NCBI GenBank assembly: GCA_000004985.1
Contig: GG738856.1
DNA from: Naegleria gruberi
Lineage: Eukaryota
Reading direction: 5' to 3' (one strand)
DNA: 64,000 bases
Shown: piece by piece, positions 19,800-36,816 of the stretch
How positions within the stretch are numbered: position 1 is the first letter of the stretch
Layout: every line of letters begins with the position of its first letter
Notes under the pieces: generated by a model
Database searches by the model: none
What the model was told of the DNA's origin: nothing
What the model saw: the letters and a program-made list of their open reading frames with translations, nothing else
Position numbers and translations under genes: made by a program

Positions 19800-20282
19800 T
19801 TTTTATAGTAGTGTGATGATTGTTGTTGTTTGGCGCCAAAAAAAATACGTTGAACAAAAACTGTAAAACACAAAGTACAACAACAATTGGAAAAGAAGGT
19901 GCTGATGATGAGTTGAATATTTAGTGTTGTGGCATCACGCCAAGTCTTAATGCTATATAGATATGCCGAATGGATGTACCTGATTATTCTTTTCGGTTAT
20001 GATTCGATATCTTTGTTGCAAATGGATAAGGATAAAACCTCCTATTAAGGATAAGGATGCCTCTATTTTACAGCTTATTTATATTTGTTAATTGAAACCA
20101 ATTCAAACAAAGCATGAGCATGAACTTTGTTTTGCTCAACGCAATATATATAAAAGTAATAATAACTAGAATATATTTTGAAAGTGTGAATTATTTCCTC
20201 ACCATAAAGAATAATGCTCTGTTTGAGGGATGATAATGATTCACAACAATATCTGATAAATTATTTCAAAAATGGCTTAATG

Positions 20283-21206
20283 TTACCAGCTTTCAATTGT
20301 AGAAATCCAACCATGATCATTTAGAAATTTGAATTGTGAATCACATTCAAACTCTTCAGTGAAGTGTGATAACCATTTAGTTTTGTCAATGGCCACCAAT
20401 TCTGCAGCAGTTTTATATTTTCCATCATGTAATTGATAGGGCATTTGGAAATAGGCCAAAACTATAGCTTGAATATCCTTTCGAAAGCATCTCTTGAAAT
20501 ATTCCTTCCAAATTTTGACATTTGGTTCCAATTTATCATTTGACATTTTTTTCCATGCTTGGAGGAATGGACTGGCAATTCTCAACGAGTTGGAGGTATA
20601 TTTCAAAAATATAAATCTGCAAATTGGTAGGAAAAAGTAATTGGTAGCATGAGGGAAATGTTTAAATAAATAGAATGGGTCATATTCCATTAAATATCTA
20701 TTCGAAAGAGGATCTCTGCAAAGATAATAATTTTCAAGTAATAAATGCTTAAAATCCTCGAAATACCTTGGTCTTGCATGGAATTTCTCTAACATACCCG
20801 AACGATTTCTTTCCAAATCTTTCAAAATATAATAATGTTGCTGTTTACGAATGACTTTCATCAAAATTGTCGTTCTATTTTCAATGCAATTATTCTTTCC
20901 AACTTTTTCAAAATCATCGCTCAATTCCATGAAAGAATTATTCTTGAATTGTTTCCTCTTTGTCTTACTCAAGTTTCGTCTTAGATTTTGAAGATATTTC
21001 AATTGGATCATCCACACCCTGTAGGCTTCCGAACTTTTCAAAAATTCATAAACTAGTGATGAGGAAATCAGCAAATTACGTAAATCATCCAAATTGCAAT
21101 ACGAATAAATATCCAATATTAACTCTGTGGGGAGAGAAATTATACTGATCGTCATCTCGGAATTATTTTGTGATGATGAATGTTCAATAGCATCTTGTTG
21201 AGACAT
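20283..21206 (-). CDS. F-box domain protein
   Basis: N-terminal LPTELILDIYSYCNLDDLRNLLISSS is an F-box-like motif. 307 aa, ATG at 21206. Confidence 0.5.
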   Translation of the reverse strand: MSQQDAIEHSSSQNNSEMTISIISLPTELILDIYSYCNLDDLRNLLISSSLVYEFLKSSEAYRVWMIQLKYLQNLRRNLSKTKRKQFKNNSFMELSDDFEKVGKNNCIENRTTILMKVIRKQQHYYILKDLERNRSGMLEKFHARPRYFEDFKHLLLENYYLCRDPLSNRYLMEYDPFYLFKHFPHATNYFFLPICRFIFLKYTSNSLRIASPFLQAWKKMSNDKLEPNVKIWKEYFKRCFRKDIQAIVLAYFQMPYQLHDGKYKTAAELVAIDKTKWLSHFTEEFECDSQFKFLNDHGWISTIESW

Positions 21207-21299
21207 TTTTTATTGATTTTTTAAATAGATAGATGAAATATAAATACCAACAATTGAAATAAGAATAATATTATTGGAGAGTTGTTTGATCATGATAAT

Positions 21300-22065
21300 T
21301 TATTCAAAAAGCTTTGGCCAAACCTTGACAATTTGTGTAATAACTTGAATGACTGGAATTCCTTCATTTGGTGGACCTTGTAATCCTTGTTCACAAACCC
21401 AACAAGCATTCCATCCCATATCAATAGATGCCATAATATTCTTTAAATTGTCATCAGCAAAGTAAATTTCCAATTGACCAGTAGCAACCATTTCCTTCCA
21501 ACTCAATTGATGTTGATCACATGAACCACTTGGAAGACCTGAAAGTTCAGCAGCCAATTCATAAGAGTGTGGATGAGGTTTCACAGAAAGGTCCAAATCT
21601 TCATAACAAACAACCTTATCAAAAAGTTCAGTGATTCCCAAATGATCCATCAATCTATTAGCATGTTTAGAATCAGAATTTGTGAATAAAATCAACTTGT
21701 CAATATTTGTTTTCAATTTTGAAATCATTGCATGCAATTCAACATCATTCTTGGTCACTCCATCCAATCCAAAACCCGAATGTACATAATGATAAAAAGT
21801 CAAAGGATCAACATCATATCCCTCATGAATTAATCCTCTCAGAGTTGTTCCGTGTTGTAAATATAAATTAATACTCTTTTCCATTGGATTTTCAATTGCT
21901 AAAACTTCACTCAAATATTGTGCAATACGATCCCTCACACACATTTACATTTGAACTCTTTGGATACAAACAATCATCCAAATCAAAGAAAAAATATCGG
22001 AGTGGTCGATTCTTGTTGGTGCTCTCGGAGGATGATGAAATTTCTGTGGTGGATGGTTGAGACAT
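21300..22065 (-). CDS. HAD-superfamily pyrimidine 5'-nucleotidase (SDT1-like); apparent +1 frameshift near 21936..21943
   Basis: Upstream frame encodes MSQPSTTEISSSSESTNKNRPLRYFFFDLDDCLYPKSSN, with HAD motif I DxDxC/T. It is out of frame with the downstream 214-aa ORF (RIAQYLSEVL...FTNSDSKHA...YFADD). The shift lies in a (TG)4 run. No plausible intron restores the frame. Confidence 0.55.
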
Positions 22066-22467
22066 TTTTTTTTAAAGTTGAAAAAGATTCTTGAATAATA
22101 ACCCACCACGATTTGATATATTTAAGTAATTAGTTGTTATCTATGCGTATCAGAGAATGAATTTAATTGAAGTCTGACTGGTGAAGTGTGGACCAAATTC
22201 ATAATTTGAATGTCATTGTAAAACTATCAATGTTAAACGTGAATTTTTACAATGCCAATCACATCCAAAACCTTCTTCGATTTCAAATCTTCACAACCAT
22301 GGCAATCACTGCACTAATAAGAAGAAAAACTTTAAAAAGGTTCTTTCACTTTTTAAATTTAAAAAAAAATTTAGAAAAAAATTTAACGGCTAGTTTCATT
22401 GTTTCCCTCCTTTGATATCAAACCCTTATCATCATCACACAACAATATTGATAATATTAATCTAAAG

Positions 22468-24282
22468 ATGCCACTCCCAGAAAAAGTTCGTAGATATACC
22501 TTCTACATTCTCGGAGGAGCCATCTGCCTAGCAATGACCAGTTTGATTTTGTATAACAATTATATTCTGATAGAACCACATTTACATACATTGTTCTGGA
22601 GTTTGTGTACGAGTATTCTACTGACCAAAGTAAAACAACCAATCAAGGCTTTCCTGGAGGGTTTCACCTCGGGGGTGAATATCAAACTTCGATTTGTCTT
22701 TCATTTGTTTTTCTGGGGGAATTACTTGTACTTCCTGGTGTACTTTTTGATGAGATGGTACACGTATAATGTTTCGGAGAGATTTGTGTTTACCATTTCG
22801 TTTATTATTGTTGGTGTGATTCTAATGTCGCCTTTTATATTGTCGGCTGATACACTGTCGACTATTATTGCAATGATATTGGCTTCATTTGTGTTGATTT
22901 CGATTACATTGTTGGTTGCTAGGACTGGTTATATGGAAAGTATGAAGGCAAGGTTTGTTTTTTCATTATTTCACTATTTTAATTATTGAATTTAATTGAC
23001 TTGTGCCTTAAATGATTAATTGTTCACATGTTTGTGAAATTCTATTTAATTAATGGTTAAATTATTGAAATATTAGCTCTGTAATTAAGGAATTTATTGA
23101 AAAGAATAAGGAAGTATTTCTAGAAAGTATGAATAACTATAAGGAAAACATAATCCCTCAAAATGTCACTGATATTAGTATCAAATCAGATAATGTAACG
23201 GTGTGGAAAACAGCTGAACGGTATTGTGACTTTATGCTGGGAGTAGCCAATAGTCAGTACGACTTTGTGAAAAATGTCACAAATCTAATTCATACCAAAA
23301 ATACGACAAATGACTCTATTGAGACGATATTGGGACCAAAGTTCTGTAAGAGTCAGGTTATGTACTTTCAAGATAATTTATACTCATTCATTCAATATGT
23401 ATTGAACTGGATGACTTCTAATATTAGTGTATTTGGCTACACACTTCAATCATTCTTCCAAACTCTGGTTGACTTGATTTCAAACTTTAAGGATTTTGTC
23501 TTTTCCTCCTTTATATTTATTTTATTTGTTTTCTACTTTGTTCAGAATGATGAATTCTTTATTGATAGCATGAAACGAATTTCACCACTCACTGAAGAAG
23601 AATCCACCATTCTCATTGACAGTATTGATACAAATATCATCAAAACTCTTTATTATTTATGCACGTTTGCCATTTGCAATTTTATAGTCACTACCTTGTC
23701 ATTCTATATTGTTGGCTTTGAAATTATTTTCATTTTTGGTATGTGTGTAATTATTTCAATAATTAATTACTTAAATTTTTATAATATTATTTCAATATTT
23801 TAAATTGAATTTAATGGAATAATTTGAAAATAGGTTTCTTGTCTGCATTCTTGTCAGTCATTCCAATTATTAGCAATTGGATTATTTGGATTCCTGCCAC
23901 AATCTTTGTCCTCTCGAGAGATGGTATCATTAGCTCCAATTGGATCATTATCTTTGCATCTCACATTTCACTCTACGTGATTGATAATATCATTTACACA
24001 AACTTTTTCAAGAAGCAACACCCAACCATGTTGGGAGTTTCCATTTTGTTAGGTGTATATGTTTTCAATCATTCAGGAATTATCAAGGGTCCTTTGTTTA
24101 TTACATTGGGAATGACATTTTTTGACATTGCCACAAAATATATCAATAAGGATAAGAAGGAAGATGGAGAAGATTCAGAAGGTGGAGGTTCTGGTTTGAG
24201 ACATCATCGTTCAAAGAGTTTCTTTGATTTGATTGCAGAAGATTGGAGCAGTATCAAATATGAAGATGATTCCAAAAAGTAA
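22468..24282 (+). CDS. AI-2E/TMEM245-family (UPF0118-like) multi-pass membrane protein; exons 22468..22956, 23111..23738, 23834..24282 (approximate)
   Basis: Many TM helices. C-terminal region IGFLSAFLSVIPIISNWIIWIPATIFVLS...GIIKGPLFITLGMTFF matches the conserved core of AI-2E/PerM/TMEM245 proteins. Exon 1/2 junction uses a weak GTTTGT donor and is the less certain one; exon 2/3 junction uses GTATGT...AATAG (exons 1/2 and 2/3). Confidence 0.5.
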
Positions 24283-24603
24283 TAAATTCAATGAAATCAT
24301 AACAAGTTGATTTGTTACATCGCACCAATTTCTAGTTATATCTTTCCAAGATGATAACAACAAAACCATCCATAGATTTTAAAGAATTAAATTTATTTTC
24401 CAAATGTATTTACCTAAATTTCACCACTATTATATAATACAAATCCTCATCCATTATTATTTGAAATCCCAATATGATGAATGATTCATACAAACGCGTT
24501 GAATAGATATAATAATAATGATGAAAATTTTATCTTCATCATTACAATTATCCAAACAACAATATCGTAAAATTAGTGATGATGAAAAAAGAGGGAGAAA
24601 GAA

Positions 24604-25140
24604 TTATTGGGAGGTAGTAGTAGCGTCGGTGGATGGAGTAGATTTCTTTTGATTAACAAGTTCTTCAAAATGTTGCTTTGGAACCTTTTCTGGGGCGTAG
24701 GCCAAAGTAGAAACATCCTTGTGTTCTGGGTTGAAGAAATGTCCTGGAGGATAGTGTCTCTTTTCTGGTTCACCAGTATAGTTTGGAGTGTGTGTTGGTC
24801 TGACACCAAATCCTTTTCTATTAGTTTCAGCTTCCGTTGGTGGTTCTTCTCTCAATCTATGAATCCACATATGCCATTCAGCTGGAATATCAGAGGCATC
24901 ATAAATTCTATCCTTACGAGCAAGCTCCACCCAACGTCCTCTGTTAAGTTCTGTTGGTAGTGTTGTTTGCCAATAAGTGTTTCCAAATTTATCTTTACCA
25001 ACAAGTTGTTTATCACCCTTTTCCCACCAAACTTCTCTGAGAACGTAGGCCTTTCTCAAGGTTTCCCTCCAGCCAAGAGTCTTGATGTCGTTCCAAAGCG
25101 AAACTTTAGCTAACCAGAATCCTCTAAAATAATTGGACAT
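24604..25140 (-). CDS. NADH:ubiquinone oxidoreductase subunit NDUFA12 (B17.2)-like
   Basis: LVGKDKFGNTYW...RGRWVEL and the hallmark PAEWHMWIHRLREEPPT (compare PPEWHRWLH..DDPPT). Confidence 0.6.
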   Translation of the reverse strand: MSNYFRGFWLAKVSLWNDIKTLGWRETLRKAYVLREVWWEKGDKQLVGKDKFGNTYWQTTLPTELNRGRWVELARKDRIYDASDIPAEWHMWIHRLREEPPTEAETNRKGFGVRPTHTPNYTGEPEKRHYPPGHFFNPEHKDVSTLAYAPEKVPKQHFEELVNQKKSTPSTDATTTSQ

Positions 25141-25551
25141 TTTTTTATCTGATTTGTATTTTATTATTTTTTTAAAAATATTAAAAATATTATCTTCACA
25201 TGTGTGAGATTGTAGTAAGCAAGAAGCTTATTCATTGTGTGTTTATTTGTTGGAAAGGAATGTTCTTCTATTGGGAATGCGATGGATGAAGATTTAGTTG
25301 AAGTAGATTCACGGAAGAAATTTAAAGAAATTTACTTGGGCAAAGCTTTAAAAAGTAATAGTTATTGATGATGATTTGGTAACTTTAATAAGAATTTCAA
25401 TAATTCATACTATTACTATCTTCTTGAGGATACTTTCAATTATTTGATGATAATTTTCTAAAAAGTTATCAGTTGAGCATGATGATGATAGCATTATGAT
25501 TCGGAATAAATACTTTGAATTAGCTATTCGATTCAAATTTGAATATCATCA

Positions 25552-25896
25552 TTACCACAACCATCCAAAGAGGGAGAAAGAAGAGGATGACGAGGATTTT
25601 GAACTTTCTCCATTCAACTTGTCCAACTTCTTATTATTTTGTTTGAGTTTGAAAGAGGCCTTTTCTACACCTTCTTCAATTTCTTCGAGGGTTGTTGTTT
25701 GATCATCCAATTCATTACCTATTGCTGTGGCAATATTCTTGACTCTTACCACGGAATTGTACAATCGATCGAGTTGTTCATCTTGACGATCTCTATGGGC
25801 TTTTTGAATTTTCAAATATTCTTCATAGTTAGAAGGAATGGTTTTTGAGGTAGTTGACAGATTGTTTTGGTTGGTAGAGGAAGATACTTTTGACAT
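25552..25896 (-). CDS. Q-SNARE (Bet1/GS15-like) coiled-coil protein
   Basis: Heptad SNARE motif LDRLYNSVVRVKNIATAIGNELDDQTTTLEEIEEGVEKASFKLKQ with a central Gln (Q layer). 114 aa. No transmembrane segment found downstream. Confidence 0.4.
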   Translation of the reverse strand: MSKVSSSTNQNNLSTTSKTIPSNYEEYLKIQKAHRDRQDEQLDRLYNSVVRVKNIATAIGNELDDQTTTLEEIEEGVEKASFKLKQNNKKLDKLNGESSKSSSSSSFSLFGWLW

Positions 25897-26116
25897 TTTA
25901 TTTGGAATGTTTATTGGAATGAGTGAACCTCATTAAATTCAATTTTCTAATTTATTTTTAGCTTACAACGGTCAATGGAACTCATTAACAACGATTAACC
26001 ACAACAAATAAAGGATAAGGAATAGAGAAAATACTTCTTGAGAAAAATAATAATTAAAATCTTCACACATGATGTTAGATTAGAGAATTTTATTATTTTA
26101 ATAGTAAAAATGTGAA

Positions 26117-26480
26117 GGGGTCTTGGCGCAGTCGGTATTATTAATAGATTTTAGGGTAGGTAACGCTCTCAATCTACCTCAACGTAACTTTAAATATAAA
26201 CTTTAAATATATTTTTAGAAAGGGTGGTTTGCGCTCTCAACTACTGTTACTCTTTCAGGTACTGTTGCTATTTCAACTACTGTTGCTCTTTAATGTACTG
26301 TTGCTATACTTTACATTGAATTGAATTTATTGATCAATTATTTCAACTTTTGAAGATTTCTTACTATTAATAATGTTATTTTTAGAGGGTGGGTTGCGCT
26401 TTAAGTAGGTCAACGCTTTAAGGCGGTAGCGCGTAGGTCTCATAATCCTAAGGTCGTGAGTTCGATCCTCACAGACCCCA
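26117..26480 (+). tRNA. Elongator tRNA-Met (anticodon CAT at 26441..26443) gene split in the D-loop: 5' part 26117..26136, 3' part 26428..26480
   Basis: Joining the two parts gives a perfect 73-nt cloverleaf: GGGGTCT-TG-GCGC-AGTCGGTA-GCGC-G-TAGGT-CTCATAA-TCCTA-AGGTC-GTGAG-TTCGATC-CTCAC-AGACCCC-A. The 7-bp acceptor stem is fully complementary. A box and B box are present. The parts are separated by 291 nt. Confidence 0.75.
26137..26427. mobile_element. 291-bp insertion/intervening sequence inside the tRNA-Met D-loop, flanked by a CGGT direct duplication (26133..26136 and 26424..26427)
   Basis: Contains three degenerate copies of a ~35-40-nt unit beginning GGGT(A/G)GGT..CGCT.T.AA (26155.., 26222.., 26388..). 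These resemble the tRNA 5' acceptor/D-arm. Also a 4x ~19-nt minisatellite (TACTGTTGCT..) at 26240..26320. Confidence 0.55.
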
Positions 26481-26482
26481 AC

Positions 26483-26489
26483 TTTTTTT
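26483..26489 (+). terminator. Pol III T-run terminator immediately 3' of the tRNA
   Basis: TTTTTTT begins 3 nt after the discriminator base. Confidence 0.6.
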
Positions 26490-26572
26490 ACATTTTTTTT
26501 TATTATAATTGCCAACATTATTTCAACAAGCTAAAAATACTATTGTATTTCCATCTTTCCAAACTTAAAAAA

Positions 26573-29500
26573 ATGTCTAAACAACCTCAAGCCAAACAAG
26601 TCCTTGCCATTGTAGAAAAGATCGGAACAAAGATCGCCATTGCTAATGGAGGCAAGAGTTTGGAAAATCTTTTGGATAATCATCTCGTTCAATTGTTGAC
26701 CCTGTTGGGTTTTCCAGAGGCTTCTGTGAGGAATAAAGTTATTGAAGTTTTGAGTAATACTGTAAATAAGAGAGTCAAACTTGAATCAACAACAATTAAA
26801 TTGCCATTTGGTAAGATTTTGGAATTGTTTCAAAAGGAAATATCAAATTCTTTTATTAAGAATTTTGCTGTAATATATCTGGATATGGGATTCCCTCAAT
26901 TGTCACCAAGTGAAATGACTGAATATTTACCAACATTCTTCCAAGTACTTCCATTATTGAATTCCAATCCAAGCGACAATACATCAGTCTCTAACAAACA
27001 GCATCAAGCAATGTTTCTAAGATTTATTGTGGAAGCTGTTTGCAATCTAACCTATCCAGAAAAGGAGGAGGATGCATTGGAAAAGTTTCAGGAAATTAGA
27101 AATTGTGGAACATCTACATTGGACATTTTTATTGACTTTGCCATAGATTTCATGCTATATAAACCATCCCAGAAATCCGTCGGAAGTATGCAAACAATCT
27201 ATCCTAATGGCTTGAATGTTATCAAAATTAAGAGAATTTTGGGAAGTAGGGAAACTATCGAAGCTCAAGAACTTCAAAAACGAAAGATGAACCTTTTGGA
27301 ATTCTTTACAAAGAGTGCATGCTTTTCAGAGAATCAACAATTTCTCGTTCTAGTGATTGGTATGTCTCAACAAGAGTCAACTGATCAATTGGGATCAAGA
27401 TGTGAAGTTCTCATCAAGAAGCTTTCCCCAGACTATGAGGAACCAACCTTCATTCAAAAGCTCTTCTCCATATATTTGGGAGATTCTTCGAATGGTATTT
27501 CTCAAGCATCTCTTCCTCTCAAGTATAAGATTTTATCTTATTTATGCAAGTCTACACTGGCAGCCAATCACTTCCCTCAAACTCACCTCGTACTAATGGA
27601 TTCTCTTTTCAGTGAATATGCTGGAATGAAACTGAGAGGATTTGGTATGCAATTTTTCATGTGGGTCATTCAAGAAGGAACAGCCATTGAACAAGAATAC
27701 GGCTCAGAAGTATTCAGATCCATTTTATCAAACATTTCACGATTGTCTTCATCAACCAATTCTTCGACATTCTCCATGAATGAAATTGCCATGTTGAAAG
27801 AGAATATGTATACAGCTCTAGGTAGTTTTGCAAGAAAATTCCCTCACTTTGTTATGGACAGATTTGATTTAGTGGAGAGATATTTTGATGCTATTGCATT
27901 CGAAGATACAAGAATTCGTGTTGCCATCTTGCAAGGTCTCTCCAATTTAATTTATGCTTTCAAAGTTAATTTTATGAATAATTCTGAAGAGGAAACTAGA
28001 GCTGTTCGTGTTAGATTTGAAAACTTATTCTATAGTTGGGTTGTTGAGAGAAATACAGGCTTAAGTGATCTTTTGACTGGAAAATCTACTCATCAAAATA
28101 TGCAACTCTCTGCTAAATCAGCTGTAAACTCAGCTGTTTTGAGATGTGCCAACAGTTTATTCCCATTTGATAATGTAGTTTCTAGGTTTTTATGTTTATT
28201 CTGCACAGCTGGAGGATTTGGATCTGGTGATAATGTCTCCTTGAGCCACCAAATCAGAGAGGAATGTTTAAAAGGAACAGATTTGGATAAATTCACAAAG
28301 GCAAGACAATTGGATCACTGGGTTATTAACAAGAAGGGTTCAGATAGCAGTGAAAGCTCAGAAGAAAATGTGAACAAGCTTCCAATGTTTCTTACTGTCA
28401 AGTTTAGTTTCCCAACTTTTAAATCAGTTGTTGGATATATTTTTGATTTCATGACCAAGTTTGATCCAGCCATAACCAAGTCCAACACTATGCCTGCCCT
28501 GAACAAGATTGTTGCTCCTTCTGCACACTCAGCAATGATCAAGTTTTGCTTTGACTGTCTAGCAGAAGAATGTAAATTACAAAATGTTTCCATGTTGGAA
28601 AGAATTGAGAAAATGTCACAAGAAATGCTTGATGACAATGTCAAGGATGACTTTGAAAAATTCTTATACGTTATTGAAAAATCATTCGATGATAAGGTAT
28701 TGCTCTACTCTGGAACAACCTCCAATGCTACAGAATTATTGTTAGAAGCTTCTGAAACTTTGCTTAGACTCCTTCTTTCATTGAAAGACAAACCAGATTA
28801 TGTCAAGTATATTTCTAGAAGATTTAGCTTCTTGCTCGATGAAAAGGGTCCATTCCTTTTTGATTTAATGCTGGGAAGTTATAATGATATTGCCAGAGAG
28901 AAATTCTCTAAATTTATTGCCCTTCTCTTTATCTTTATTCGTCAAGATCCAGAAAAGTCATCCCAATGTGAAAAACTTATAGGAATTTGGAAAGATTACA
29001 TTGAAAAGCAATTCGGCAACGCTAACACGATGTCTGATCATAAGGGTGAAGTATGCGCTCTTGGAAGCATCTTGACTTTGGGTAGTATTATCAGTCTTAA
29101 TTATGCTTCTCAATCCTCATCATCAACAGAGCCATACTTGTTGGATGCATTCAAACTTATTTTAAGTATTTTGAGTAAGATTCCATTGACAAACTTGAGA
29201 GAACCTCTTCACCAAGCTTGTTATTTGGCTGTTGGTGAAATGGGATATAGTGGAGTTTTGCAAGACTACTTCGCAAATTATTTCACCCCAACCATTGATG
29301 AATTACAATTTGAGGTTAGTGCAACTCTTCCATCGAAGGAAATTAACTCTATGGATGATTTGGTGACCTTATTTGTAAAACTTGTTGAAAGATATGCATC
29401 ATCCACTCGTCAAAAGAACTCATCAACAACTAATGAAAAGATTTTAGAAAGATTGATTATAACTGTAGGAAAAGTTTGTGTTGGATCTAATAAGAATAAT

Positions 29501-32500
29501 GATCCAAAGGTTGCTGATCACGTTGCAGCTATTATCACTGTTCTCTTCCAATTGAACAATGTCAAAACTACAAGTATTCCAACAACAGGCACTGGTGGCT
29601 CATCAAATAGCAGTGAAATGACTGCTACTGCACCACAAGCTGCCTTCGATGAGAATATTTCATTTACTGTTGGTGAATCGCTTGCCTTGATTGGAGGTGG
29701 TTTGAAGCATTGTGAACTTGCTAAGGATGATCCATACTTTGTAATCTACAATCAAAAGAATGCATTTTCTTCAGATGAAGAAGAAACTGAACATTATGAT
29801 GGCAACTTGAGAACAGTTCTCAGTAGATTGGTTCGTGAGTGTGTATTAAATCCAAAGAAGATTGTTCGTCAAGCTTCTAGCATTTGGTTATTGGCAGTGA
29901 CAAAATACAGTGGTCAATCCAATGCTTTATTCAAGAAGTACATCAAGGAAGTCCAAAGAGCTTTCTCTCTCCTTGTTACTGAAAATAATGAAGTTACCTC
30001 TGAAGTTGCAGGTAAGGGCCTGGGTTATGTCTATGAAATGGCAGAGAATACAGACAGAAAACAACTTGTCGACTCCTTAATGAACTATTTGATCGGAAAC
30101 AAAAAGCCACAAAACCTTGCTATTATTGAAGAGCCGGAGGAGCTCATGCTTTTCCCAGCTGGTGAGGAGCATCAAAAGGGTGGTAAGAATGCACCAACAT
30201 TGTCAACCTATAAGGAACTTGTTGATGCAGCAACAGATATTGGTAGACCTGAGATGATTTACCAACTTTTGGCTGTATCCAATCACAATGCTATTTGGAA
30301 TGCAAAGAAAGCTTATGCATTCTCTATGACCTCAATTCTTGGAAATCTGTCTGGTACCTCCCTCTTGGAAGATAAGGAGTTTGAAAAGAGTTTACCTCAA
30401 CTTGTTCCAAAACTTTTCAGATTCCTCTTTGATCCAAATCCAACAATCAGTGGTTCTATGAAGGAAATGTGGAAATCCCTTTTCGGAAGTGAAAATGACA
30501 AGACCAAACAAAATATGATCATTTCTAAATATTTGCCAAGAATTATGAAGGAATTATTGAATGGATTGAATCAAGAACTTTGGAGAATCAGAGAAGCTTG
30601 TTGTTATGCTATTTGTGAATTGATTGGTGGTAGCAGTTCAAAGACCTTTGAAGAAATGGCGCCATTTATCAAAGACTCATTCCAAAAAGTTTGGAGAGTA
30701 ACAGATGATGTCAAAGACACTTGCAGAAAGGCAGCTCAAAGTGCCCTCACAAAACTCAGCAACTTTGTTATCAAGGCATGTAATCCAACCTATACAAGCA
30801 AGAGAGAAAATGTTTCTCGTGCTCTTGCTATTGCGATTCCATTGTTGTTGCACGAAGGTTTGATTTTCCCATTCAAGGATGTTGTTCATTCTAGTTTGGC
30901 TACTTTGAAGGAAGTAGTTCATGTATCAACTCACTATATCAGACCACATATTCACGAAATTGTTTCAACATTATTGCAACAAATGTCTGTTCTTGAACCA
31001 GCTCAATTCAACTATATTCAAATGAATGCAGCAGAGTACGGTATTTCTGTGGAGCAATTGGAAAGTTTGAGATTGTCTGCCATGTCCAGAGGAGGTCCAC
31101 TGTCTGAAATCATTATGGATTGTGAAAGACATGTTGATGAAAGTGTTCTTCAAACACTTGTTCCAAGTCTTTTGGAAGTACTCCAGGTTGGTGTTGGTCT
31201 TCAAACAAGAGCCCACTGTGCCAAGTTTATTGCCTCTTTGGGTAAATTCCATGGAAGGTATCTGAAAGACTTTGTCAATCCTCTTGATGTTGCCATCATG
31301 AGTGCAATCAGACAAACAGAATCAATGGCTGAGAAGAAAGAGTTGGCTACAGCTCTTTCCCAAGTTGTTAAGAATGGTAAAGTCTCAGAGGCAAAACGTG
31401 TCTTGGTTGAAATCCTTAACATGTACACACAAGAGGGTGAGGAAAATGAGAATGAAAATTCTGCAGATGAGTTGAGAATGATGAGTGCCTTAATTTTGGA
31501 ACAAATCAGTAAGAATTGTACCATTCTCTTGAAGAGATTCTACGACATTGCACTCCCAATCATGTTCATTGCCAGACACGACAAGAGTGAGAGAGTTAGG
31601 AAAATGTGGGACTCTGTCTGGGAAGAATCTACCAATACCTCTGTTAAGAGTACTTTGGAAATCCATATCAAGGTGATTGTTGACAGATGTATTCAATTGT
31701 TGGGCCACCCAACTTGGGAATTGAAGAGACAAGGAGGTAGTGCTCTGCAAGAAGTTGCAAGTGCTTTGGGTATTCTGCTTAATGAAAAACCACAAGAAAG
31801 AGAACAAATGATTACAGCTCTCCTCAATTCTATCACTGGTCGTTTGTGGGAAGGAAAGATTGTACTTCTCAAGGCTCTTGGAAGTGTTTGTGAAACATTT
31901 GTTTCAAAGGAAAATCAACAAGTTTCTCAAGAGATGAAAATTTTGGATATTCTTCAAAAGGAATGTAAGAAGAAGGATGTAGATTATAGATTGGAAGCTC
32001 TCAAAGCCTATCATTCAGCCGTGAAGAATGCTCACTTTGCCAAATTTATCACACAAGAAATTTATGAAACTTCTAAGAGTTTCTTCTTGGAAGAGATGAG
32101 TAATATGGAAAAGGAAGAACAAGAGGAAATTAAGGTTGAGAATGAAAATAAGATTGCCATGGTAAATGATGACAAGACTCACTATCAAGAAAAGATGAAG
32201 AGAGATATCAAGTCAAGCAAGAGAGAAACTTCCTGTGTTCAAATTATTCACATACTTTCTTATCTTATTCCTGCCACTTCTCAAGTTGAACAAAGAAGAA
32301 AAGCAGTTGATTGGATTTTAGACGAATTATTGGCACCAAGACTTGTGCAATATCTCACACCAAATATTAACAATGCACTCTTGACAGCATTACTCCAATT
32401 TGTAAAGTTGAGAATTGCCCTTAAGGCAGAAGATCCATCAGTTCTTGATTTGACAGAACAAAAGAGAGTCTTTGAATTGGCAATCTTCAACTTGGATCCA

Positions 32501-32698
32501 AACAATAGACAAATTCATGTGAGACCAAATGCCTTCAATACTCTCAAGGATTTAATGACTCAGCTAGCAGATAATAATCTTTTATTAGATGAAACCAAAC
32601 AATTCATTAGACAACAATTGAACGAAGATTTCTTGAAGAGAGTATTGGAACCACTTTTGCATGACCAAATTCAAAACTTTGCTAATACCAAACTTTAA
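26573..32698 (+). CDS. ECM29-like proteasome adaptor (giant HEAT-repeat protein)
   Basis: 2041 aa from ATG 26573. The N-terminal LLTLLGFPEASVRNKVIEVLSNTVNKRV matches the conserved ECM29 N-terminal ...SPxASVRxxVxxxLxNxxxRI block. HEAT-like repeats throughout. The ORF-track start 26456 lies inside the tRNA and is an alternative-start artefact. Confidence 0.6.
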   Translation: MSKQPQAKQVLAIVEKIGTKIAIANGGKSLENLLDNHLVQLLTLLGFPEASVRNKVIEVLSNTVNKRVKLESTTIKLPFGKILELFQKEISNSFIKNFAVIYLDMGFPQLSPSEMTEYLPTFFQVLPLLNSNPSDNTSVSNKQHQAMFLRFIVEAVCNLTYPEKEEDALEKFQEIRNCGTSTLDIFIDFAIDFMLYKPSQKSVGSMQTIYPNGLNVIKIKRILGSRETIEAQELQKRKMNLLEFFTKSACFSENQQFLVLVIGMSQQESTDQLGSRCEVLIKKLSPDYEEPTFIQKLFSIYLGDSSNGISQASLPLKYKILSYLCKSTLAANHFPQTHLVLMDSLFSEYAGMKLRGFGMQFFMWVIQEGTAIEQEYGSEVFRSILSNISRLSSSTNSSTFSMNEIAMLKENMYTALGSFARKFPHFVMDRFDLVERYFDAIAFEDTRIRVAILQGLSNLIYAFKVNFMNNSEEETRAVRVRFENLFYSWVVERNTGLSDLLTGKSTHQNMQLSAKSAVNSAVLRCANSLFPFDNVVSRFLCLFCTAGGFGSGDNVSLSHQIREECLKGTDLDKFTKARQLDHWVINKKGSDSSESSEENVNKLPMFLTVKFSFPTFKSVVGYIFDFMTKFDPAITKSNTMPALNKIVAPSAHSAMIKFCFDCLAEECKLQNVSMLERIEKMSQEMLDDNVKDDFEKFLYVIEKSFDDKVLLYSGTTSNATELLLEASETLLRLLLSLKDKPDYVKYISRRFSFLLDEKGPFLFDLMLGSYNDIAREKFSKFIALLFIFIRQDPEKSSQCEKLIGIWKDYIEKQFGNANTMSDHKGEVCALGSILTLGSIISLNYASQSSSSTEPYLLDAFKLILSILSKIPLTNLREPLHQACYLAVGEMGYSGVLQDYFANYFTPTIDELQFEVSATLPSKEINSMDDLVTLFVKLVERYASSTRQKNSSTTNEKILERLIITVGKVCVGSNKNNDPKVADHVAAIITVLFQLNNVKTTSIPTTGTGGSSNSSEMTATAPQAAFDENISFTVGESLALIGGGLKHCELAKDDPYFVIYNQKNAFSSDEEETEHYDGNLRTVLSRLVRECVLNPKKIVRQASSIWLLAVTKYSGQSNALFKKYIKEVQRAFSLLVTENNEVTSEVAGKGLGYVYEMAENTDRKQLVDSLMNYLIGNKKPQNLAIIEEPEELMLFPAGEEHQKGGKNAPTLSTYKELVDAATDIGRPEMIYQLLAVSNHNAIWNAKKAYAFSMTSILGNLSGTSLLEDKEFEKSLPQLVPKLFRFLFDPNPTISGSMKEMWKSLFGSENDKTKQNMIISKYLPRIMKELLNGLNQELWRIREACCYAICELIGGSSSKTFEEMAPFIKDSFQKVWRVTDDVKDTCRKAAQSALTKLSNFVIKACNPTYTSKRENVSRALAIAIPLLLHEGLIFPFKDVVHSSLATLKEVVHVSTHYIRPHIHEIVSTLLQQMSVLEPAQFNYIQMNAAEYGISVEQLESLRLSAMSRGGPLSEIIMDCERHVDESVLQTLVPSLLEVLQVGVGLQTRAHCAKFIASLGKFHGRYLKDFVNPLDVAIMSAIRQTESMAEKKELATALSQVVKNGKVSEAKRVLVEILNMYTQEGEENENENSADELRMMSALILEQISKNCTILLKRFYDIALPIMFIARHDKSERVRKMWDSVWEESTNTSVKSTLEIHIKVIVDRCIQLLGHPTWELKRQGGSALQEVASALGILLNEKPQEREQMITALLNSITGRLWEGKIVLLKALGSVCETFVSKENQQVSQEMKILDILQKECKKKDVDYRLEALKAYHSAVKNAHFAKFITQEIYETSKSFFLEEMSNMEKEEQEEIKVENENKIAMVNDDKTHYQEKMKRDIKSSKRETSCVQIIHILSYLIPATSQVEQRRKAVDWILDELLAPRLVQYLTPNINNALLTALLQFVKLRIALKAEDPSVLDLTEQKRVFELAIFNLDPNNRQIHVRPNAFNTLKDLMTQLADNNLLLDETKQFIRQQLNEDFLKRVLEPLLHDQIQNFANTKL

Positions 32699-32758
32699 AC
32701 CTTACATAAAGATGGAACTATTAAAACGTTCAAAATATAAGTAAAATAGTTAATAAAT

Positions 32759-34357
32759 TTATTTTTGTGGTTGTTCGAAGGATTTAACAACTCTCTTAAT
32801 GATTCCAATACATTCTCTCAATTGTTCTTCAGTAATAACGAGAGGAGGAGCAAAACGAATGACATTGTCATGAGTTTGTTTGGCTAACAAACCATTTTCC
32901 TTGAAAGCAGTACACAAATCATAAGAATTCTTTCCGTGCATCTTGGAGTGATTCATAACGAAGGCATTCAAGAGACCCTTTCCTCTAACTTGTTCAACAA
33001 TACCACCTTCATGAATGAGTTCACTACATTCTTGTCTGAAAATTTCACCAAGTCTAGCAGCATTTTCAATCATCTTTTCTTCTTGCAAAACTTCGAGAGC
33101 AGTCAAAGAAACAGCACAACCAAGTGGATTACCGCCATAAGTGGAACCGTGAGTACCTGGTTCAAAAACATCCATAACCTTACTATCAGCAAGAATACAA
33201 GAAACTGGGAAAACACCACCTGACAAGGCCTTACCTAAAATGACAATATCTGGCTTGTCACCATTCATTCTGTCAAATGCATAATCAGAACATAACATTT
33301 TACCAGTTCTTCCCAAACCAGTTTGAATTTCATCACAAATCAACAAGACATTGTGTTCCTTACACAATTGTTGAACTTGCTTAAGGTATCCTTCACCTGG
33401 AACACGAACACCAGCTTCACCTTGAATTGGTTCAATCAAGAATGCAGCAACATTCTTTCCAAACTTTTCCAATAATTCTCTCAAAGAATCAATATCATCA
33501 TACTTGGCAGTCAAAACACCTGGAATGAATGGACCGAAACCATCTCTAGTTTCATCAGAATCACTCAAACTGATAATACCAAGAGTTCTACCATGGAAAT
33601 TTCCAGAACAACCAATAATAATAGCTTCATTATCTGGAATACCCTTAACTTCATAACCCCACTTTCTGGCAGCCTTAAGAGCTGTTTCAACAGCTTCAGC
33701 TCCTGTATTCATTGGAAGAACCTTTTCATAACCAAATAATTTAGTGACATATTGAGCCCATTGACCGAAAACATTGTTATAGAATGCACGAGATGAGAGT
33801 GTGAGTTTTTGGGCTTGTGTAATGAGAGTTTGAATAATCTTTGGGTGACAGTGTCCTTGATTGACGGCACTGTAAGCTGAGAGGAAATCATAATATTTAC
33901 GACCTTCTGGATCTTGAACAACAACACCATCAGCCTTTTCAAAGACAACCTTCAATGGATGATAGCTGGATGTTGTGTAAGATTTTTGTTATTCAATTAA
34001 TATTGCATTAATAAATATCATCATGATTCAATTCGGACATGAAACATTAAGTTAATCCAATCAATTTTAAATCCGAAAATCCGAAAATTATTGTTAATAA
34101 TTGATGAATGTAAATAATAATAATAACGAATGATGATGATGAATAACATGTTGCATAAATATAATTTAGATAAATATACTAAATTCCACCACTAATAGTA
34201 CATACTTGTGAGCAGAGAAATCGCTTTCCATCTTGATAACTTCTGCACTGTTCAACTTTTTAATATCATATTGGCATGAACGAAGGGTAGAAAATTCTCT
34301 TCTTATACTTCCGGTTGTTGTGCTCTTCAAAATTCTAAGTGCTTGTCTGTTCAACAT
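32759..34357 (-). CDS. Ornithine aminotransferase (class III PLP aminotransferase); exons 34206..34357 and 32759..33965
   Basis: Exon 1 (MLNRQ...SDFSAH + AA) joins exon 2 (C-TAT-CAT-CCA...) via GTATGT..TCCAG to give ..FSAHN|YHPLKVVFEKADGVVVQDPEGRKYYDFLSAYSAVNQGHCHP. Near-identical to OAT over the whole length, including the PLP-lysine region DEIQTGLGRTG and the ILGKALSGG block. Confidence 0.9.
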
Positions 34358-34722
34358 ATTTTGTGGTGGTGGAGAATTGTTTGATTTTTTTTAGAGTTTG
34401 CAGCAGTGGATTTTTTGGTCTTAATTGTGGCGTTTAATACTTGAGAGAACATAACAACAACTCAAATTCAATCTGTGTGAATGAAAAGTAAAATGTCAGA
34501 TAGAGTTGGAAAAAACACCTTGTTAGTAATGAATATTGGTTTATAACATTGTAACTGAGAGAATCATTTAGTAGAACCACGGATATTAAGTGACCTGACC
34601 AAATTGCAAAAGTTGACCTAACCATTGGAAATTAACGATCTGTTTTGAAAATGAGCGAATTATAATCTTATTGGTAATCATTTCTTTTTACATGCAATTT
34701 GGGTTTTATTGTAACTCAAAAT

Positions 34723-36816
34723 TTATTGATGTGTCGACTTGAAACTTTCCACAATCTTTTCAATTCGTTTCATCCACTCTTGTTTCTCACTTTCATTCTC
34801 AGCTCTTATAGCCCACTCTTTAATGTCATCTTCCTCAACTCTAATCTTATAAATTTTAAAACTATACTCCTTCTTTGGATAATCAACAAGTATTACATCC
34901 TTTCCAAAGTCAAATTGAGCTTCAAGCTTCTTTTTACAAATTTCATCATCCTCGAATAATAACAATTGGGTTGCAGTTAGAACAGCATACCTTCTTTTCC
35001 ATGATTTAACCTTTGTTCTTTTCGAAACAAATCCTTTCATTAATATTTGTGATTCATCGACGAGCCCATGTTGCTTGATCTTCTCTGGTTTCAGATCATT
35101 TCTCTCCTTTAACTTTTGGAAGAGAGGTTTCAACACCTCATCGTACTTTTCAATCATCAGGGCTATTATCCTTGTGCCCTTTGTTTGAAGAACAAGGTTG
35201 TTAGACAAGCTTGCTGAACCATCTTGGAATAGGTTTGGAGCAAAAATAATTGCAAGATTGTGTGCTGTCATTTGATTAACATCACTCTTTCTGTGAATAT
35301 TGTACAATAAGTGTAATAATCTATTAAGCAACAGGCAATTATAATATGGGATTATTGAAACATCAGAAAATAGTTTTGTCAGTTCTTTCATAATATCATC
35401 ATCCTTGTCCATTTGAAGCACTTTCTTGAAAACCTCAAATGATTCTGGTGTTAATAGCTTGGCTTGTCTGATATACTTTTTAGTCAGGCCAGTTATTACG
35501 TGAATGTTCAGAGTTCTTAAGTCTACAACCTTACCAGCATCCATCTTTTTAATTAATGCTTCCATTTCTTTCACATTACCTCCAATTCTGAACAATCCTT
35601 CTACGTTCATCTTTTCAGAGATTACAACCATCATTTCTTCAATGATAGCTGGAATTTCGTGTCCTAACTCACTCTTTCTCGACATTACTGTATTTAATTC
35701 CACACCAAATTCCTTACTATCTCCTCTTTTGAATAGTGTTGTGAAGAAATCCTTTGGAACTGTTCCATATCTTCCTCCTTTCATAAAATCATTTCTAATA
35801 CTTTTCTTTCGTTTAACCGAGACCCTTCTTGTGGAAGGTGATGTTGGCGATAATGTAGAATTGGAATCGAGATCACCACTGTTTTTTCTCGTATAGACAG
35901 GTGGTGAGCTGGTACTACTACTTGATTGAGTGACATTGCCTTCCTCATCGATGGTGCAAGTGATTCGTGAAGGTTCCAAAAACCTTCCCATGCTCAATCT
36001 GGCAGGTTGCTTGGTGGAATCATCTGTAGAGTTTGGAATATCTTCATACTCGGGTGTCTCCTCGTGATCACTTGCTGGAGTGGAATACTCTGGCTCACTG
36101 TCATACTCAGACATTGTACCAATAGATGATTTTGAAGGAGTTAGGATATCAAAGTTTTCATTGCCGAGATCATTGATATCTTTAGTATACTCTACTCCAC
36201 CATCTTCATCCTCTTGAAGTTCATCCATTTCTACTCCAGCTTGTTTAAGCAAATCTGAAAACTCCATCACTGAGTTACAACTCAAGTGCTTAGATCTCTT
36301 CTCAACTTTAGATAAGCTATTAGTCACCAGATCAGTGATATGGGCGTATGGTGTTTTGTGTACAAGTTGAGAAAATGGTGATAGTAATGGTGTTCCATCT
36401 TGGGGTGTTGTTTGATCTCCTTCTTGGTGTTGTTGTTCTTCTTCCACTGGCAAGGATGATTCAATATTTGGTTGAAAATCCTCTGTGCTTGTCTCTTCAT
36501 CAACAGAGGTGGTAAATTTCTCAATTTTGGCTGATTTTGGGCTTTGGATATTGGAAAAAGCTTCTTCTGAGTTGAATGATGGTACTGAAGGTGCTGATGA
36601 AGGTGTTTTTGTTGTTGTTTTTATATTGATTGAGCCATGTTTTTCTGAGAAGGAACCTCCTTGCTCATCTCGAATTAATTCATCAGGAGGTAGGGCTGTA
36701 AAGGGAGAATATCTTCTTGATCTTCTAGGCATTGAATTGAGGGCCTTCTCTTCTTCGGCATCCAGAATACTAGTATCATTATTTGTGGGAACTTCGGACA
36801 TGATGTGTTTGTACAA
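34723..36816 (-). CDS. RhoGAP domain protein with C-terminal PH domain
   Basis: RhoGAP core EGLFRIGGN...MTAHNLAIIFAPNLF. C-terminal PH-like region (MKGFVSKRTKVKSWKRRYAVLTATQLLLFED). Real ATG probably at 36801 (MSEVP); the ORF-track start is a TTG. Confidence 0.8.
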   Translation of the reverse strand: MYKHIMSEVPTNNDTSILDAEEEKALNSMPRRSRRYSPFTALPPDELIRDEQGGSFSEKHGSINIKTTTKTPSSAPSVPSFNSEEAFSNIQSPKSAKIEKFTTSVDEETSTEDFQPNIESSLPVEEEQQHQEGDQTTPQDGTPLLSPFSQLVHKTPYAHITDLVTNSLSKVEKRSKHLSCNSVMEFSDLLKQAGVEMDELQEDEDGGVEYTKDINDLGNENFDILTPSKSSIGTMSEYDSEPEYSTPASDHEETPEYEDIPNSTDDSTKQPARLSMGRFLEPSRITCTIDEEGNVTQSSSSTSSPPVYTRKNSGDLDSNSTLSPTSPSTRRVSVKRKKSIRNDFMKGGRYGTVPKDFFTTLFKRGDSKEFGVELNTVMSRKSELGHEIPAIIEEMMVVISEKMNVEGLFRIGGNVKEMEALIKKMDAGKVVDLRTLNIHVITGLTKKYIRQAKLLTPESFEVFKKVLQMDKDDDIMKELTKLFSDVSIIPYYNCLLLNRLLHLLYNIHRKSDVNQMTAHNLAIIFAPNLFQDGSASLSNNLVLQTKGTRIIALMIEKYDEVLKPLFQKLKERNDLKPEKIKQHGLVDESQILMKGFVSKRTKVKSWKRRYAVLTATQLLLFEDDEICKKKLEAQFDFGKDVILVDYPKKEYSFKIYKIRVEEDDIKEWAIRAENESEKQEWMKRIEKIVESFKSTHQ

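What the first reader, a model, noticed from the sequence alone, without database searches (positions are those of the whole stretch)
26117..26489. Elongator tRNA-Met gene interrupted in the D-loop by a 291-bp element with target-site-like duplication and tRNA-5'-like internal repeats
The two halves (26117..26136 and 26428..26480) join into a flawless 73-nt tRNA-Met(CAU) with a fully paired acceptor stem, A and B boxes and a T-run terminator. They are separated at position 20/21 of the D-loop, not at the canonical 37/38 intron site. The intervening DNA ends with CGGT, duplicating the CGGT just before the break; this looks like a 4-bp target-site duplication. Internally it carries three degenerate copies of a GGGT(G/A)GGT.GCGCT-like unit resembling the tRNA acceptor/D-arm, plus a 4x ~19-nt minisatellite. 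Possible explanations are a small non-autonomous (possibly tRNA-derived, Pol III) mobile element inserted into its target tRNA gene, or a non-canonical D-loop intervening sequence. Known dictyostelid tRNA-targeting retroelements insert beside tRNA genes, not within them (established knowledge), so this would be unusual.
Basis: seen in the sequence. Interest (0 to 1): 0.75.

Follow-up and report, generated by a model that had tools for sequence, protein, structure and literature searches.

The report
Insertion-broken tRNA-Met gene in Naegleria
One copy of the elongator methionine tRNA gene of the amoeba Naegleria gruberi is cut in two by 291 bp of AT-rich repetitive DNA, and it is most likely an ordinary, recently disrupted gene copy rather than a new kind of tRNA intron.

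Summary
Joining 26117..26136 to 26428..26480 gives a flawless 73-nt elongator tRNA-Met(CAU), which ARAGORN finds only after the 291 bp are removed. CGGT flanks both junctions. The insert holds three copies of an AGGGTGGKTTGCGCT-like unit and an 18-nt x 4.3 minisatellite.

Three parts of the interpretation need correcting:
- The window is Naegleria gruberi nuclear DNA (the ECM29 gene is 100% identical to NAEGRDRAFT_57411), not a dictyostelid.
- The internal units resemble the tRNA 5' half no more than chance allows.
- Elements that insert inside tRNA genes are already known (Dada DNA transposons).

Against a spliced intron:
- No bulge-helix-bulge motif fits any of the five possible junction registers.
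- No ribozyme or group I match was found.
- The insert is not unusually structured (z = -1.0).
- It carries four T4/T5 runs that should stop RNA polymerase III before the 3' half.

About 125 uninterrupted tRNA-Met genes sharing the same 40-nt core were seen in other eukaryotes, some with the identical D-arm. The joined form is therefore the ancestral state.

Best reading: a recent insertion, by a small mobile element or by microhomology-mediated DNA capture, inactivated one copy of a multicopy gene family. The source of the insert is unresolved, because no second copy lies in any DNA I could reach and the rest of the N. gruberi genome was not searchable.

The parts
26117..26136 (+). 5' part of tRNA-Met(CAU): acceptor 5' strand, D-stem 5' strand and D-loop up to position 20. 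It contains an intact A box (TGGCGCAGTCGG).
   Evidence: It is the only match in the window at up to 3 mismatches.
26133..26136 (+). Left copy of the junction duplication CGGT (extended form AGTCGGT, 26130..26136).
26137..26427 (+). 291-bp intervening DNA. It is 31% G+C, non-coding, with stops in all six frames.
   Evidence: No second copy in the window or in L001-L003. Fold z-score -0.99 on the + strand and -0.39 on the - strand.
26137..26147 (+). Left arm of an 11-nt perfect inverted repeat (ATTATTAATAG). It begins at the first base of the insert.
   Evidence: repeat I10. An inverted repeat this long at an insert end is seen in 0.1% of shuffles.
26364..26374 (+). Right arm of the inverted repeat (CTATTAATAAT). 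It ends 53 nt before the 3' junction.
   Evidence: The two arms pair in the fold constrained to the cloverleaf.
26153..26172 (+). Internal unit U1 (AGGGTAGGTAACGCTCTCAA).
26221..26240 (+). Internal unit U2 (AGGGTGGTTTGCGCTCTCAA).
26386..26405 (+). Internal unit U3 (AGGGTGGGTTGCGCTTTAAG).
26229..26305 (+). Minisatellite of 18 nt x 4.3 copies (consensus TTGCTCTTTCAAGTACTG).
26397..26427 (+). 17-nt tandem pair, CGCTTTAAGTAGGT / CGCTTTAAGGCGGT. The second copy ends in the right CGGT (26424..26427).
   Evidence: repeat D6.
26149..26152 (+). T4 run in the insert, 13 nt past the 5' junction; the first of four Pol III terminator-like runs that lie before the 3' half.
26212..26216 (+). T5 run in the insert, second of the four terminator-like runs.
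26348..26351 (+). T4 run in the insert, third of the four terminator-like runs.
26379..26383 (+). T5 run in the insert, last of the four terminator-like runs.
26428..26480 (+). 3' part of tRNA-Met(CAU): A21, D-stem 3' strand, anticodon arm (CAT), variable loop, T-arm with B box, acceptor 3' strand and discriminator A.
   Evidence: Its 40-nt core is identical in about 125 uninterrupted tRNA-Met genes on more than 120 metagenome contigs.
26483..26501 (+). The gene's own Pol III terminator: T7, then ACA, then T9.

Best explanation
This is one copy of the multicopy elongator tRNA-Met gene family of Naegleria gruberi. It was broken in its D-loop by the insertion of 291 bp of AT-rich, internally repetitive, non-coding DNA.

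The 4-bp CGGT duplication (6 of 7 over AGTCGGT / AGGCGGT) is the scar of the insertion event. It marks either a staggered-cut integration by a small non-autonomous mobile element, or capture of a DNA fragment at a double-strand break through microhomology.

The copy is most likely dead. RNA polymerase III starting from the still-intact A box would meet a T4 run 13 nt into the insert and T5 runs further on. In addition, no known RNA-level excision signal brackets the insert. Both halves are still perfect, so the event is recent. It would be tolerated because N. gruberi has roughly 900 tDNAs.

Shown here: the precise join, the duplication, the internal repeats, the T runs, and the absence of a BHB motif or ribozyme.

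Inferred: that it was an insertion event, that the copy is inactive, that the event is recent, and what the agent was.
For: - Removing exactly 291 bp restores a perfect 73-nt tRNA-Met.
- The restored D-arm TGGCGCAGTCGGTAGCGC is identical to that of uninterrupted tRNA-Met genes in other eukaryotes (L010, L084, L118). All of about 125 genes sharing the 40-nt core are uninterrupted. The joined form is therefore ancestral and the 291 bp are an addition.
- The chance of the junction duplication CGGT is about 0.002-0.004.
- No strict or relaxed BHB motif fits any of the 5 possible registers; the central helix reaches at most 2 of 4 pairs.
- There is no Rfam match other than the tRNA 3' part, even at E <= 10.
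- The insert folds no better than shuffles.
- Four runs of T4-T5 lie in the insert on the tRNA strand.
- The insert has minisatellite and tandem-repeat content.
- N. gruberi has about 924 tDNAs (PMC2888827, read), so losing one copy is cheap.
- DNA transposons that land inside tRNA genes of tDNA-rich genomes are documented (PMC3706591, PMC8869645).
Against: - Both halves carry no degenerative change at all. That fits a functional, selected gene as well as it fits a recent event.
- The insert's first 11 nt pair perfectly with an internal segment (0.1% of shuffles). In a cloverleaf-constrained fold the insert ends are drawn together next to the D-stem, which is what an excisable intervening sequence might look like.
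- No second copy of the insert, no terminal inverted repeats at both ends, no poly(A) tail and no transposase relative were found. A mobile-element origin is therefore unproven.
- How strictly Naegleria Pol III terminates at T4/T5 is not known.
- Ectopic tRNA introns of the Guillardia nucleomorph reportedly mostly lack a BHB motif (PMC3728597). Absence of a BHB motif is therefore not absolute proof against splicing.
Confidence: 0.66

Rival explanations
1. It is a functional, non-canonical D-loop intervening sequence. The whole 364-nt precursor is transcribed, the 291 nt are removed at the RNA level, and the exons are ligated to give a working tRNA-Met.
For: - The exons are perfect and the join is exact.
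- An 11-12 bp closing helix plus U16-C17-G18 pairing with CGG bring the two junctions together next to the D-stem in the constrained fold.
- Ectopic tRNA introns, including ones in the D-arm, exist in a eukaryotic nucleus (Cyanidioschyzon merolae). Nucleomorph ectopic introns often lack a BHB motif (PMC3728597).
Against: - No BHB or relaxed BHB motif fits any register.
- At 291 nt the insert is far longer than the C. merolae ectopic introns; the one length quoted in the text I read is 22 nt (PMC3728597), and my recollection is that they run to a few tens of nt.
- Four T4/T5 runs lie on the transcribed strand.
- Minisatellite content and a near-random folding energy.
- No ribozyme match.
- From established knowledge, the eukaryotic Sen endonuclease 'ruler' mode works only at position 37/38.
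Confidence: 0.1
2. It is not a transposon. The 291 bp are filler DNA captured or templated during repair of a double-strand break in the tRNA gene, and later expanded by replication slippage (the 13-, 17- and 18-nt tandem repeats). CGGT is repair microhomology, not a target-site duplication. This is a sub-case of the best explanation that differs only in the agent.
For: - There is a single copy in all DNA that could be reached.
- Inverted repeats are not present at both ends, and there is no tail or coding capacity.
- Three separate short tandem arrays lie inside the insert.
- The microhomology length of 4 nt is typical of end joining (established knowledge).
Against: - The source of the captured DNA was not found. 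The insert shares no more k-mers with the tRNA or its flanks than chance allows.
- The 11-nt terminal inverted repeat and the three dispersed units look more like an organised element than like random filler.
Confidence: 0.25
3. It is a self-splicing (group I-like) or spliceosomal-type intron. If the break is placed at 16/17, the 5' exon ends in U and the intervening sequence ends in G. If it is placed at 26131..26422, the boundaries are GT..AG and the product is a valid 72-nt tRNA-Met.
For: - The U/G boundary rule can be met because of the CGGT ambiguity.
- The GT..AG excision product is called tRNA-Met by ARAGORN.
- Recalled, not checked here: mRNA-type introns occur in the Pol III-transcribed U6 genes of some yeasts.
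Against: - There is no match to Rfam's group I intron model or to any ribozyme family, even at E <= 10.
- The sequence is AT-rich with a minisatellite and has no stable core.
- GTCGGT is a poor 5' splice site.
- The exact 73-nt ancestral join cannot be produced with GT..AG ends.
- As far as I know, no spliceosomal intron has been reported in any tRNA gene.
Confidence: 0.02
4. It is an assembly or cloning artefact that joined unrelated DNA inside a tRNA gene.
For: Nothing specific. It cannot be excluded without reads.
Against: - Both junctions fall inside one 73-nt gene, in the same orientation.
- The two exon pieces are exactly complementary in content.
- The flanks are unique sequence. A chimera would not restore a perfect gene on deletion.
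Confidence: 0.02

Closest known systems
Dada DNA transposons (tRNA-, U6-, U1- and 5S-gene-specific; fish, invertebrates, Perkinsus marinus; PMC3706591, PMC8869645)
   Same: - They insert inside tRNA genes of genomes with many tDNA copies.
- They leave short direct duplications of gene sequence.
- They lack terminal inverted repeats and have short sub-terminal repeats.
- The disrupted copies are tolerated because the family is large.
- TGGCGC at nt 8-13 of tRNA-Met is a known Dada target, and TTGCGC, a proposed ancestral Dada target sequence that often replaces the target at Dada-tA junctions, occurs in units U2 and U3 of the insert.
   Different: - Dada elements are 4.7-11 kb and encode a DDE transposase; this insert is 291 bp and non-coding.
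- The Dada duplication is 6-7 bp at nt 8-13 or in the anticodon stem. Here it is 4 bp (6 of 7 at best) at nt 14-20.
- No Dada transposase was found in the window.
Ectopic BHB tRNA introns of Cyanidioschyzon merolae, nucleomorphs and Archaea (PMC3728597)
   Same: An intervening sequence at a non-37/38 position, including the D-arm, in a gene whose exons join to a perfect tRNA.
   Different: - Those introns are short (22 nt in the one example quoted in the text read; a few tens of nt by my recollection).
- In C. merolae and Archaea they are bracketed by hBHBh', hBH or HBh' motifs.
- They occur in most tRNA genes of the genome, and their splicing has been shown experimentally.
- Here the sequence is 291 nt with no such motif in any register, and it contains T runs.
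MITE or other short non-autonomous transposon insertions
   Same: Size of about 0.2-0.3 kb, AT-rich, non-coding, with foldback potential (11-nt inverted repeat) and a short flanking duplication.
   Different: The second inverted-repeat arm is internal, 53 nt from the end. A 4-bp CGGT duplication fits no superfamily that I could test. Copy number is unknown.
Split and permuted tRNA genes (Nanoarchaeum, C. merolae, prasinophytes; PMC3978253)
   Same: The tRNA information is stored in separated pieces.
   Different: Those pieces are separately transcribed or permuted, and they are joined through BHB motifs formed by complementary leader and trailer sequences. Here the halves are collinear, 291 bp apart, and have no such motif.

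Membership tests
Eukaryotic elongator tRNA-Met(CAU) gene | Cloverleaf with a CAU anticodon, A and B boxes, the U31:U39 mismatch and a downstream T-run | tested here: met
   Met only after the 291 bp are removed: ARAGORN calls tRNA-Met, 73 nt. The 40-nt core is identical to about 125 uninterrupted tRNA-Met genes. T7 and T9 runs follow.
BHB-type (endonuclease-spliced) tRNA intron | Two 3-nt bulges separated by a 4-bp helix, or a relaxed hBH / HBh' form, at the exon-intron junctions | tested here: not met
   All 5 registers allowed by the CGGT ambiguity were checked. The central helix has at most 2 of 4 pairs, and in no register is a central helix of more than one pair flanked by a helix of two consecutive pairs.
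BHB-type (endonuclease-spliced) tRNA intron | The precursor is transcribed through the intron by Pol III, so the intron has no internal terminator | tested here: not met
   T4, T5, T4 and T5 runs lie at 26149, 26212, 26348 and 26379 on the tRNA strand. How efficiently these terminate transcription in Naegleria is not testable here.
Group I self-splicing intron | Conserved catalytic core (P3-P8) detectable with a covariance model | tested here: not met
   The Rfam scan of 25950..26650 at E <= 10 returned only the tRNA 3' part. The fold z-score is -0.99.
Dada transposon | A 6-7 bp target-site duplication at a family-specific site inside a small-RNA gene | tested here: inconclusive
   The exact duplication is 4 bp, or 6 of 7 over AGTCGGT / AGGCGGT. 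The site, nt 14-20, is not one of the described Dada sites (nt 8-13 or the anticodon stem).
Dada transposon | A DDE transposase, or sequence identity of the termini to an autonomous Dada element (for a non-autonomous copy) | tested here: not met
   There is no coding capacity, no Dada-like ORF in the window or loci, and no Naegleria-labelled hit to a Dada profile among 52 mostly unnamed hits (sensitivity is limited). Identity of the termini is not testable without the genome.
MITE / non-autonomous DNA transposon | Terminal inverted repeats at both ends | tested here: inconclusive
   There is an 11-nt perfect inverted repeat whose first arm sits exactly at the 5' end (0.1% of shuffles). The partner arm lies 53 nt inside the 3' end.
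MITE / non-autonomous DNA transposon | Multiple dispersed copies, each with its own target-site duplication | not testable with these tools
   Only 64 kb of N. gruberi DNA was available, with no second copy there or in the loci of related species.
tRNA-derived SINE | A tRNA-related head with internal A and B boxes, and a 3' tail (A-rich or simple repeat) | tested here: not met
   The similarity of the units to the tRNA is at chance level. ARAGORN finds nothing in the insert. Neither strand ends in a tail.

The most novel reading that the evidence does not exclude
The 291 bp belong to an undescribed family of small elements in Naegleria that home to the D-loop (nt 14-20, AGTCGGT) of tRNA genes. 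This would be a new target specificity, possibly Dada-like. Alternatively, and less likely, they are a large BHB-less D-loop intervening sequence that is excised to yield a working tRNA-Met. That would be the first such case in a free-living heterolobosean nucleus.
Probability: 0.12. Interest if true: 0.7.

Novelty: new member of a known kind. Interest (0 to 1): 0.3.

Why it matters
If it is what it appears to be, this is a minor annotation point. Standard tRNA finders miss the locus, which should be labelled as an interrupted tRNA-Met pseudogene upstream of ECM29.

It would matter more in two cases. The first is if a genome-wide search showed the insert to be a dispersed element with a preference for tRNA D-loops; that would add a protist lineage and a new target site to the small set of transposons that live inside small-RNA genes. 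The second is if RNA data showed excision; that would extend ectopic tRNA introns to Heterolobosea and to a BHB-independent mechanism.

Tried and rejected
1. Dictyostelid context. Rejected: ECM29 at 26573..32698 is 100% identical to N. gruberi NAEGRDRAFT_57411.

2. Orthologous-locus comparison. The ECM29 loci of N. lovaniensis, a Naegleria-like metagenome contig and Willaertia magna were fetched. They hold no tRNA at all. Only ECM29 itself is shared with the window, so no empty or filled orthologous site exists to compare.

3. Exact-protein look-ups of three window proteins, to reach more N. gruberi DNA. None is on record.

4. First ECM29 homologue search with the N-terminal 600 aa at E <= 1e-20. 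It returned nothing, and the full-length query was needed.

5. Metagenome scan with the 40-nt tRNA core. It returned only uninterrupted genes of other eukaryotes, none with the Naegleria acceptor stem. This was useful as a baseline but gave no second split gene.

6. The idea that the insert is built from scrambled pieces of the tRNA itself (GTAGGTC, GCGC..GGT). Shared k-mers and alignment scores are at chance level.

7. BHB, group I and GT-AG readings. Rejected or very unlikely.

8. Solo LTR. No rotation of the insert starts with TG and ends with CA (read from the sequence).

9. Helitron and SINE. No matching ends or tail.

10. Dada hypothesis. No transposase in the window, and no Naegleria-labelled hit to a Perkinsus Dada profile.

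11. Literature. Nothing was found on Naegleria tRNA introns or on elements that target tRNA genes in Naegleria.

Full report
**What is there**

The 20 nt at 26117..26136 and the 53 nt at 26428..26480 together make GGGGTCTTGGCGCAGTCGGT|AGCGCGTAGGTCTCATAATCCTAAGGTCGTGAGTTCGATCCTCACAGACCCCA. ARAGORN accepts the joined sequence as a 73-nt tRNA-Met(CAU) with every stem paired. The one exception is U31:U39. That mismatch is part of the 40-nt core shared with about 125 other eukaryotic elongator tRNA-Met genes.

On the native sequence no tool finds the gene:
- Rfam finds nothing at gathering score.
- At a permissive threshold Rfam sees only the 3' part, 26427..26472, at 24.9 bits against a gathering score of 29.

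T7 and T9 runs follow the gene. CGGT ends both the 5' piece and the intervening DNA. The break could therefore sit anywhere between tRNA positions 16/17 and 20/21. The chance of that 4-nt coincidence is 0.002-0.004, and the match extends to 6 of 7 (AGTCGGT / AGGCGGT).

**Where it is**

The window is not dictyostelid. The 2041-aa ORF starting 93 nt downstream of the tRNA (26573..32698) has ECM29_N and HEAT_ECM29 domains. It is 100% identical to NAEGRDRAFT_57411 of Naegleria gruberi. Its homologues are 68% identical in N. lovaniensis and 47% in Willaertia magna.

Neighbouring ORFs are NDUFA12 and an ornithine-type class-III aminotransferase. This is nuclear DNA of a heterolobosean amoeba with 31-39% G+C. 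N. gruberi is reported to have about 924 tDNAs (PMC2888827).

**Anatomy of the 291 bp**

- The insert is 31% G+C, with stops in all six frames.
- It has three copies of an AGGGTGGKTTGCGCT-like unit at 26153, 26221 and 26386. The motif is found nowhere else in the 64 kb.
- It has an 18-nt x 4.3 minisatellite at 26229..26305, a 13-nt x 2 repeat at 26186..26211, and a 17-nt tandem pair whose second copy supplies the right-hand CGGT.
- Its first 11 nt (ATTATTAATAG) are perfectly complementary to 26364..26374. An inverted repeat this long, anchored at an insert end, appears in 0.1% of shuffles even when five registers and both ends are allowed. The partner arm lies 53 nt short of the 3' junction, however.

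- The best local alignment of the 5' half to the insert scores 12, against a shuffle mean of 11.4.
- The whole tRNA scores 14, against a shuffle mean of 13.9.
- Shared 6- to 8-mers are at expectation.

The units are repeats of each other. The best off-diagonal self-match scores 25, above all 200 shuffles. They are not demonstrably tRNA-derived.

**Is it an intron?**

I tested each known route by which an intervening sequence leaves a tRNA.

1. Endonuclease splicing needs a bulge-helix-bulge motif or a relaxed form of it. From established knowledge, at non-37/38 sites this is the only mode available, because the eukaryotic 'ruler' mode is tied to the anticodon stem. I wrote out the outer, central and inner helices for all five registers permitted by the CGGT ambiguity. 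None has more than 2 of 4 central pairs, and in no register is a central helix of more than one pair flanked by a helix of two consecutive pairs.
2. Self-splicing. No group I intron or other ribozyme family matches, even at E <= 10. The insert folds no better than shuffled sequence, with z = -0.99 on the tRNA strand and -0.39 on the other.
3. GT..AG excision of 26131..26422 does give a valid 72-nt tRNA-Met. However, GTCGGT is a poor donor site, the ancestral 73-nt join cannot be made with GT..AG ends, and I know of no spliceosomal intron reported in any tRNA gene.
4. The insert carries T4, T5, T4 and T5 runs on the transcribed strand, the first only 13 nt past the junction. Such runs are Pol III terminators in the eukaryotes studied (established knowledge). 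Their strength in Naegleria is unknown.

Two points count for an intron reading. The exons are flawless. And in a fold constrained to the cloverleaf, the insert ends are drawn together by the 11-12 bp AU helix plus a U16-C17-G18: CGG pairing. Also, ectopic introns of the Guillardia nucleomorph reportedly often lack a BHB motif (PMC3728597), so the negative BHB test is strong but not absolute.

**Is the joined form ancestral?**

Yes. A scan of metagenome contigs with the 40-nt core returned more than 120 contigs from other eukaryotes. In every gene whose 5' flank lay within the contig (about 125), the 5' part lies directly upstream and uninterrupted. Several of them (L010, L084, L118) have exactly the D-arm TGGCGCAGTCGGTAGCGC that the join restores. 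The 291 bp are therefore an addition to a standard gene.

**Comparative evidence**

There is none for this locus. The ECM29 loci of N. lovaniensis (26 kb), a Naegleria-like metagenome contig (7.7 kb) and Willaertia magna (26 kb) contain no tRNA, whole or split. They share only ECM29 with the window. The insert has no second copy in the window or in the first-fetched versions of those loci, L001-L003. The rest of the N. gruberi genome is not in any DNA collection I could search, and exact-protein look-ups of window proteins found no record.

**What it most likely is**

It is a recently insertion-inactivated copy of a multicopy tRNA gene. The junction duplication fits either a staggered-cut integration or microhomology-mediated capture, and I cannot decide between them.
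- For an element: the terminal inverted repeat, three organised units and the short flanking duplication.
- Against: no partner inverted repeat at the 3' end, no tail, no coding capacity, and no other copy in reach.

The closest documented precedent for DNA that lands inside tRNA genes is the Dada superfamily. Its features are a 6-7 bp duplication, no terminal inverted repeats, targets at nt 8-13 (including TGGCGC of tRNA-Met) or the anticodon stem, and hosts rich in tDNAs, including the protist Perkinsus (PMC3706591, PMC8869645). I noted that TTGCGC, a proposed ancestral Dada target sequence that often replaces the target at Dada-tA junctions, occurs in units U2 and U3.

Membership in Dada fails, however:
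- The insert is 291 bp, not 4.7-11 kb.
- The site is nt 14-20.
- The exact duplication is 4 bp.
- There is no Dada-like ORF in the window.
- A profile of three Perkinsus Dada transposases returned 52 proteins, none labelled Naegleria. Sensitivity is limited and most of the hits are unnamed.

**Verdict**

It is wrong on the organism, wrong on the tRNA-likeness of the internal repeats, and wrong on how unprecedented an insertion within a tRNA gene is.

I rate interest as low to moderate. A genome-wide BLAST of the insert and a count of intact tRNA-Met genes would settle the matter in minutes. RNA evidence for excision would be the only route to a surprising result.

Noticed in passing
window 26573..32698 (+): An intron-less 2041-aa ECM29 proteasome-adaptor homologue, 100% identical to N. 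gruberi NAEGRDRAFT_57411. This identifies the window as Naegleria gruberi nuclear DNA. Its start codon lies only 93 nt downstream of the tRNA 3' end, so the broken tRNA sits in the presumed ECM29 promoter / 5' region.
   Followed up: yes
window 20000..36000 compared with L001/L124, L002, L003/L125: Gene order around ECM29 is not conserved between N. gruberi, N. lovaniensis, a Naegleria-like metagenome contig and Willaertia magna. Only ECM29 itself aligns. In N. lovaniensis the upstream neighbour is NIP7. In N. gruberi it is a 113-aa ORF with no Pfam hit, followed by NDUFA12.
   Followed up: partly
L004..L123 (metagenome contigs): The 40-nt anticodon-arm-to-T-arm core of this tRNA-Met is identical in more than 120 contigs from varied, mostly marine, eukaryotes with different acceptor stems. 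Some contigs carry several copies: L084 and L118 have three within about 7 kb, and L028 has two.
   Followed up: partly
L054 (position about 1097, - strand) and L022: These are variant tRNA-Met genes with the same core. L054 has a D-arm about 6 nt shorter (GTGGCAGTAGCGGCAGCGC). L022 has an extra base in the D-arm region. They are probably pseudogenes or atypical D-arms.
   Followed up: no
window 26321..26346: A near-perfect AT-rich palindrome (TTGAATTTATTGATCAATTATTTCAA) centred on GATC lies inside the insert. Part of it is also complementary to 25930..25944, upstream of the tRNA (15 nt, 93%).
   Followed up: no
window 32759..33955 (-): The class-III aminotransferase (ornithine aminotransferase-like) ORF has no ATG at its start. 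It matches the Pfam profile from position 11, so its 5' end probably lies in a separate exon.
   Followed up: no
P0023..P0074: A profile of three Perkinsus Dada transposases finds 52 relatives. These include proteins of the diatom Thalassiosira sp. and Perkinsus olseni, and many unnamed ENA assembly proteins of about 390 aa. Dada-like genes appear to be widespread in protist and metagenome data.
   Followed up: no
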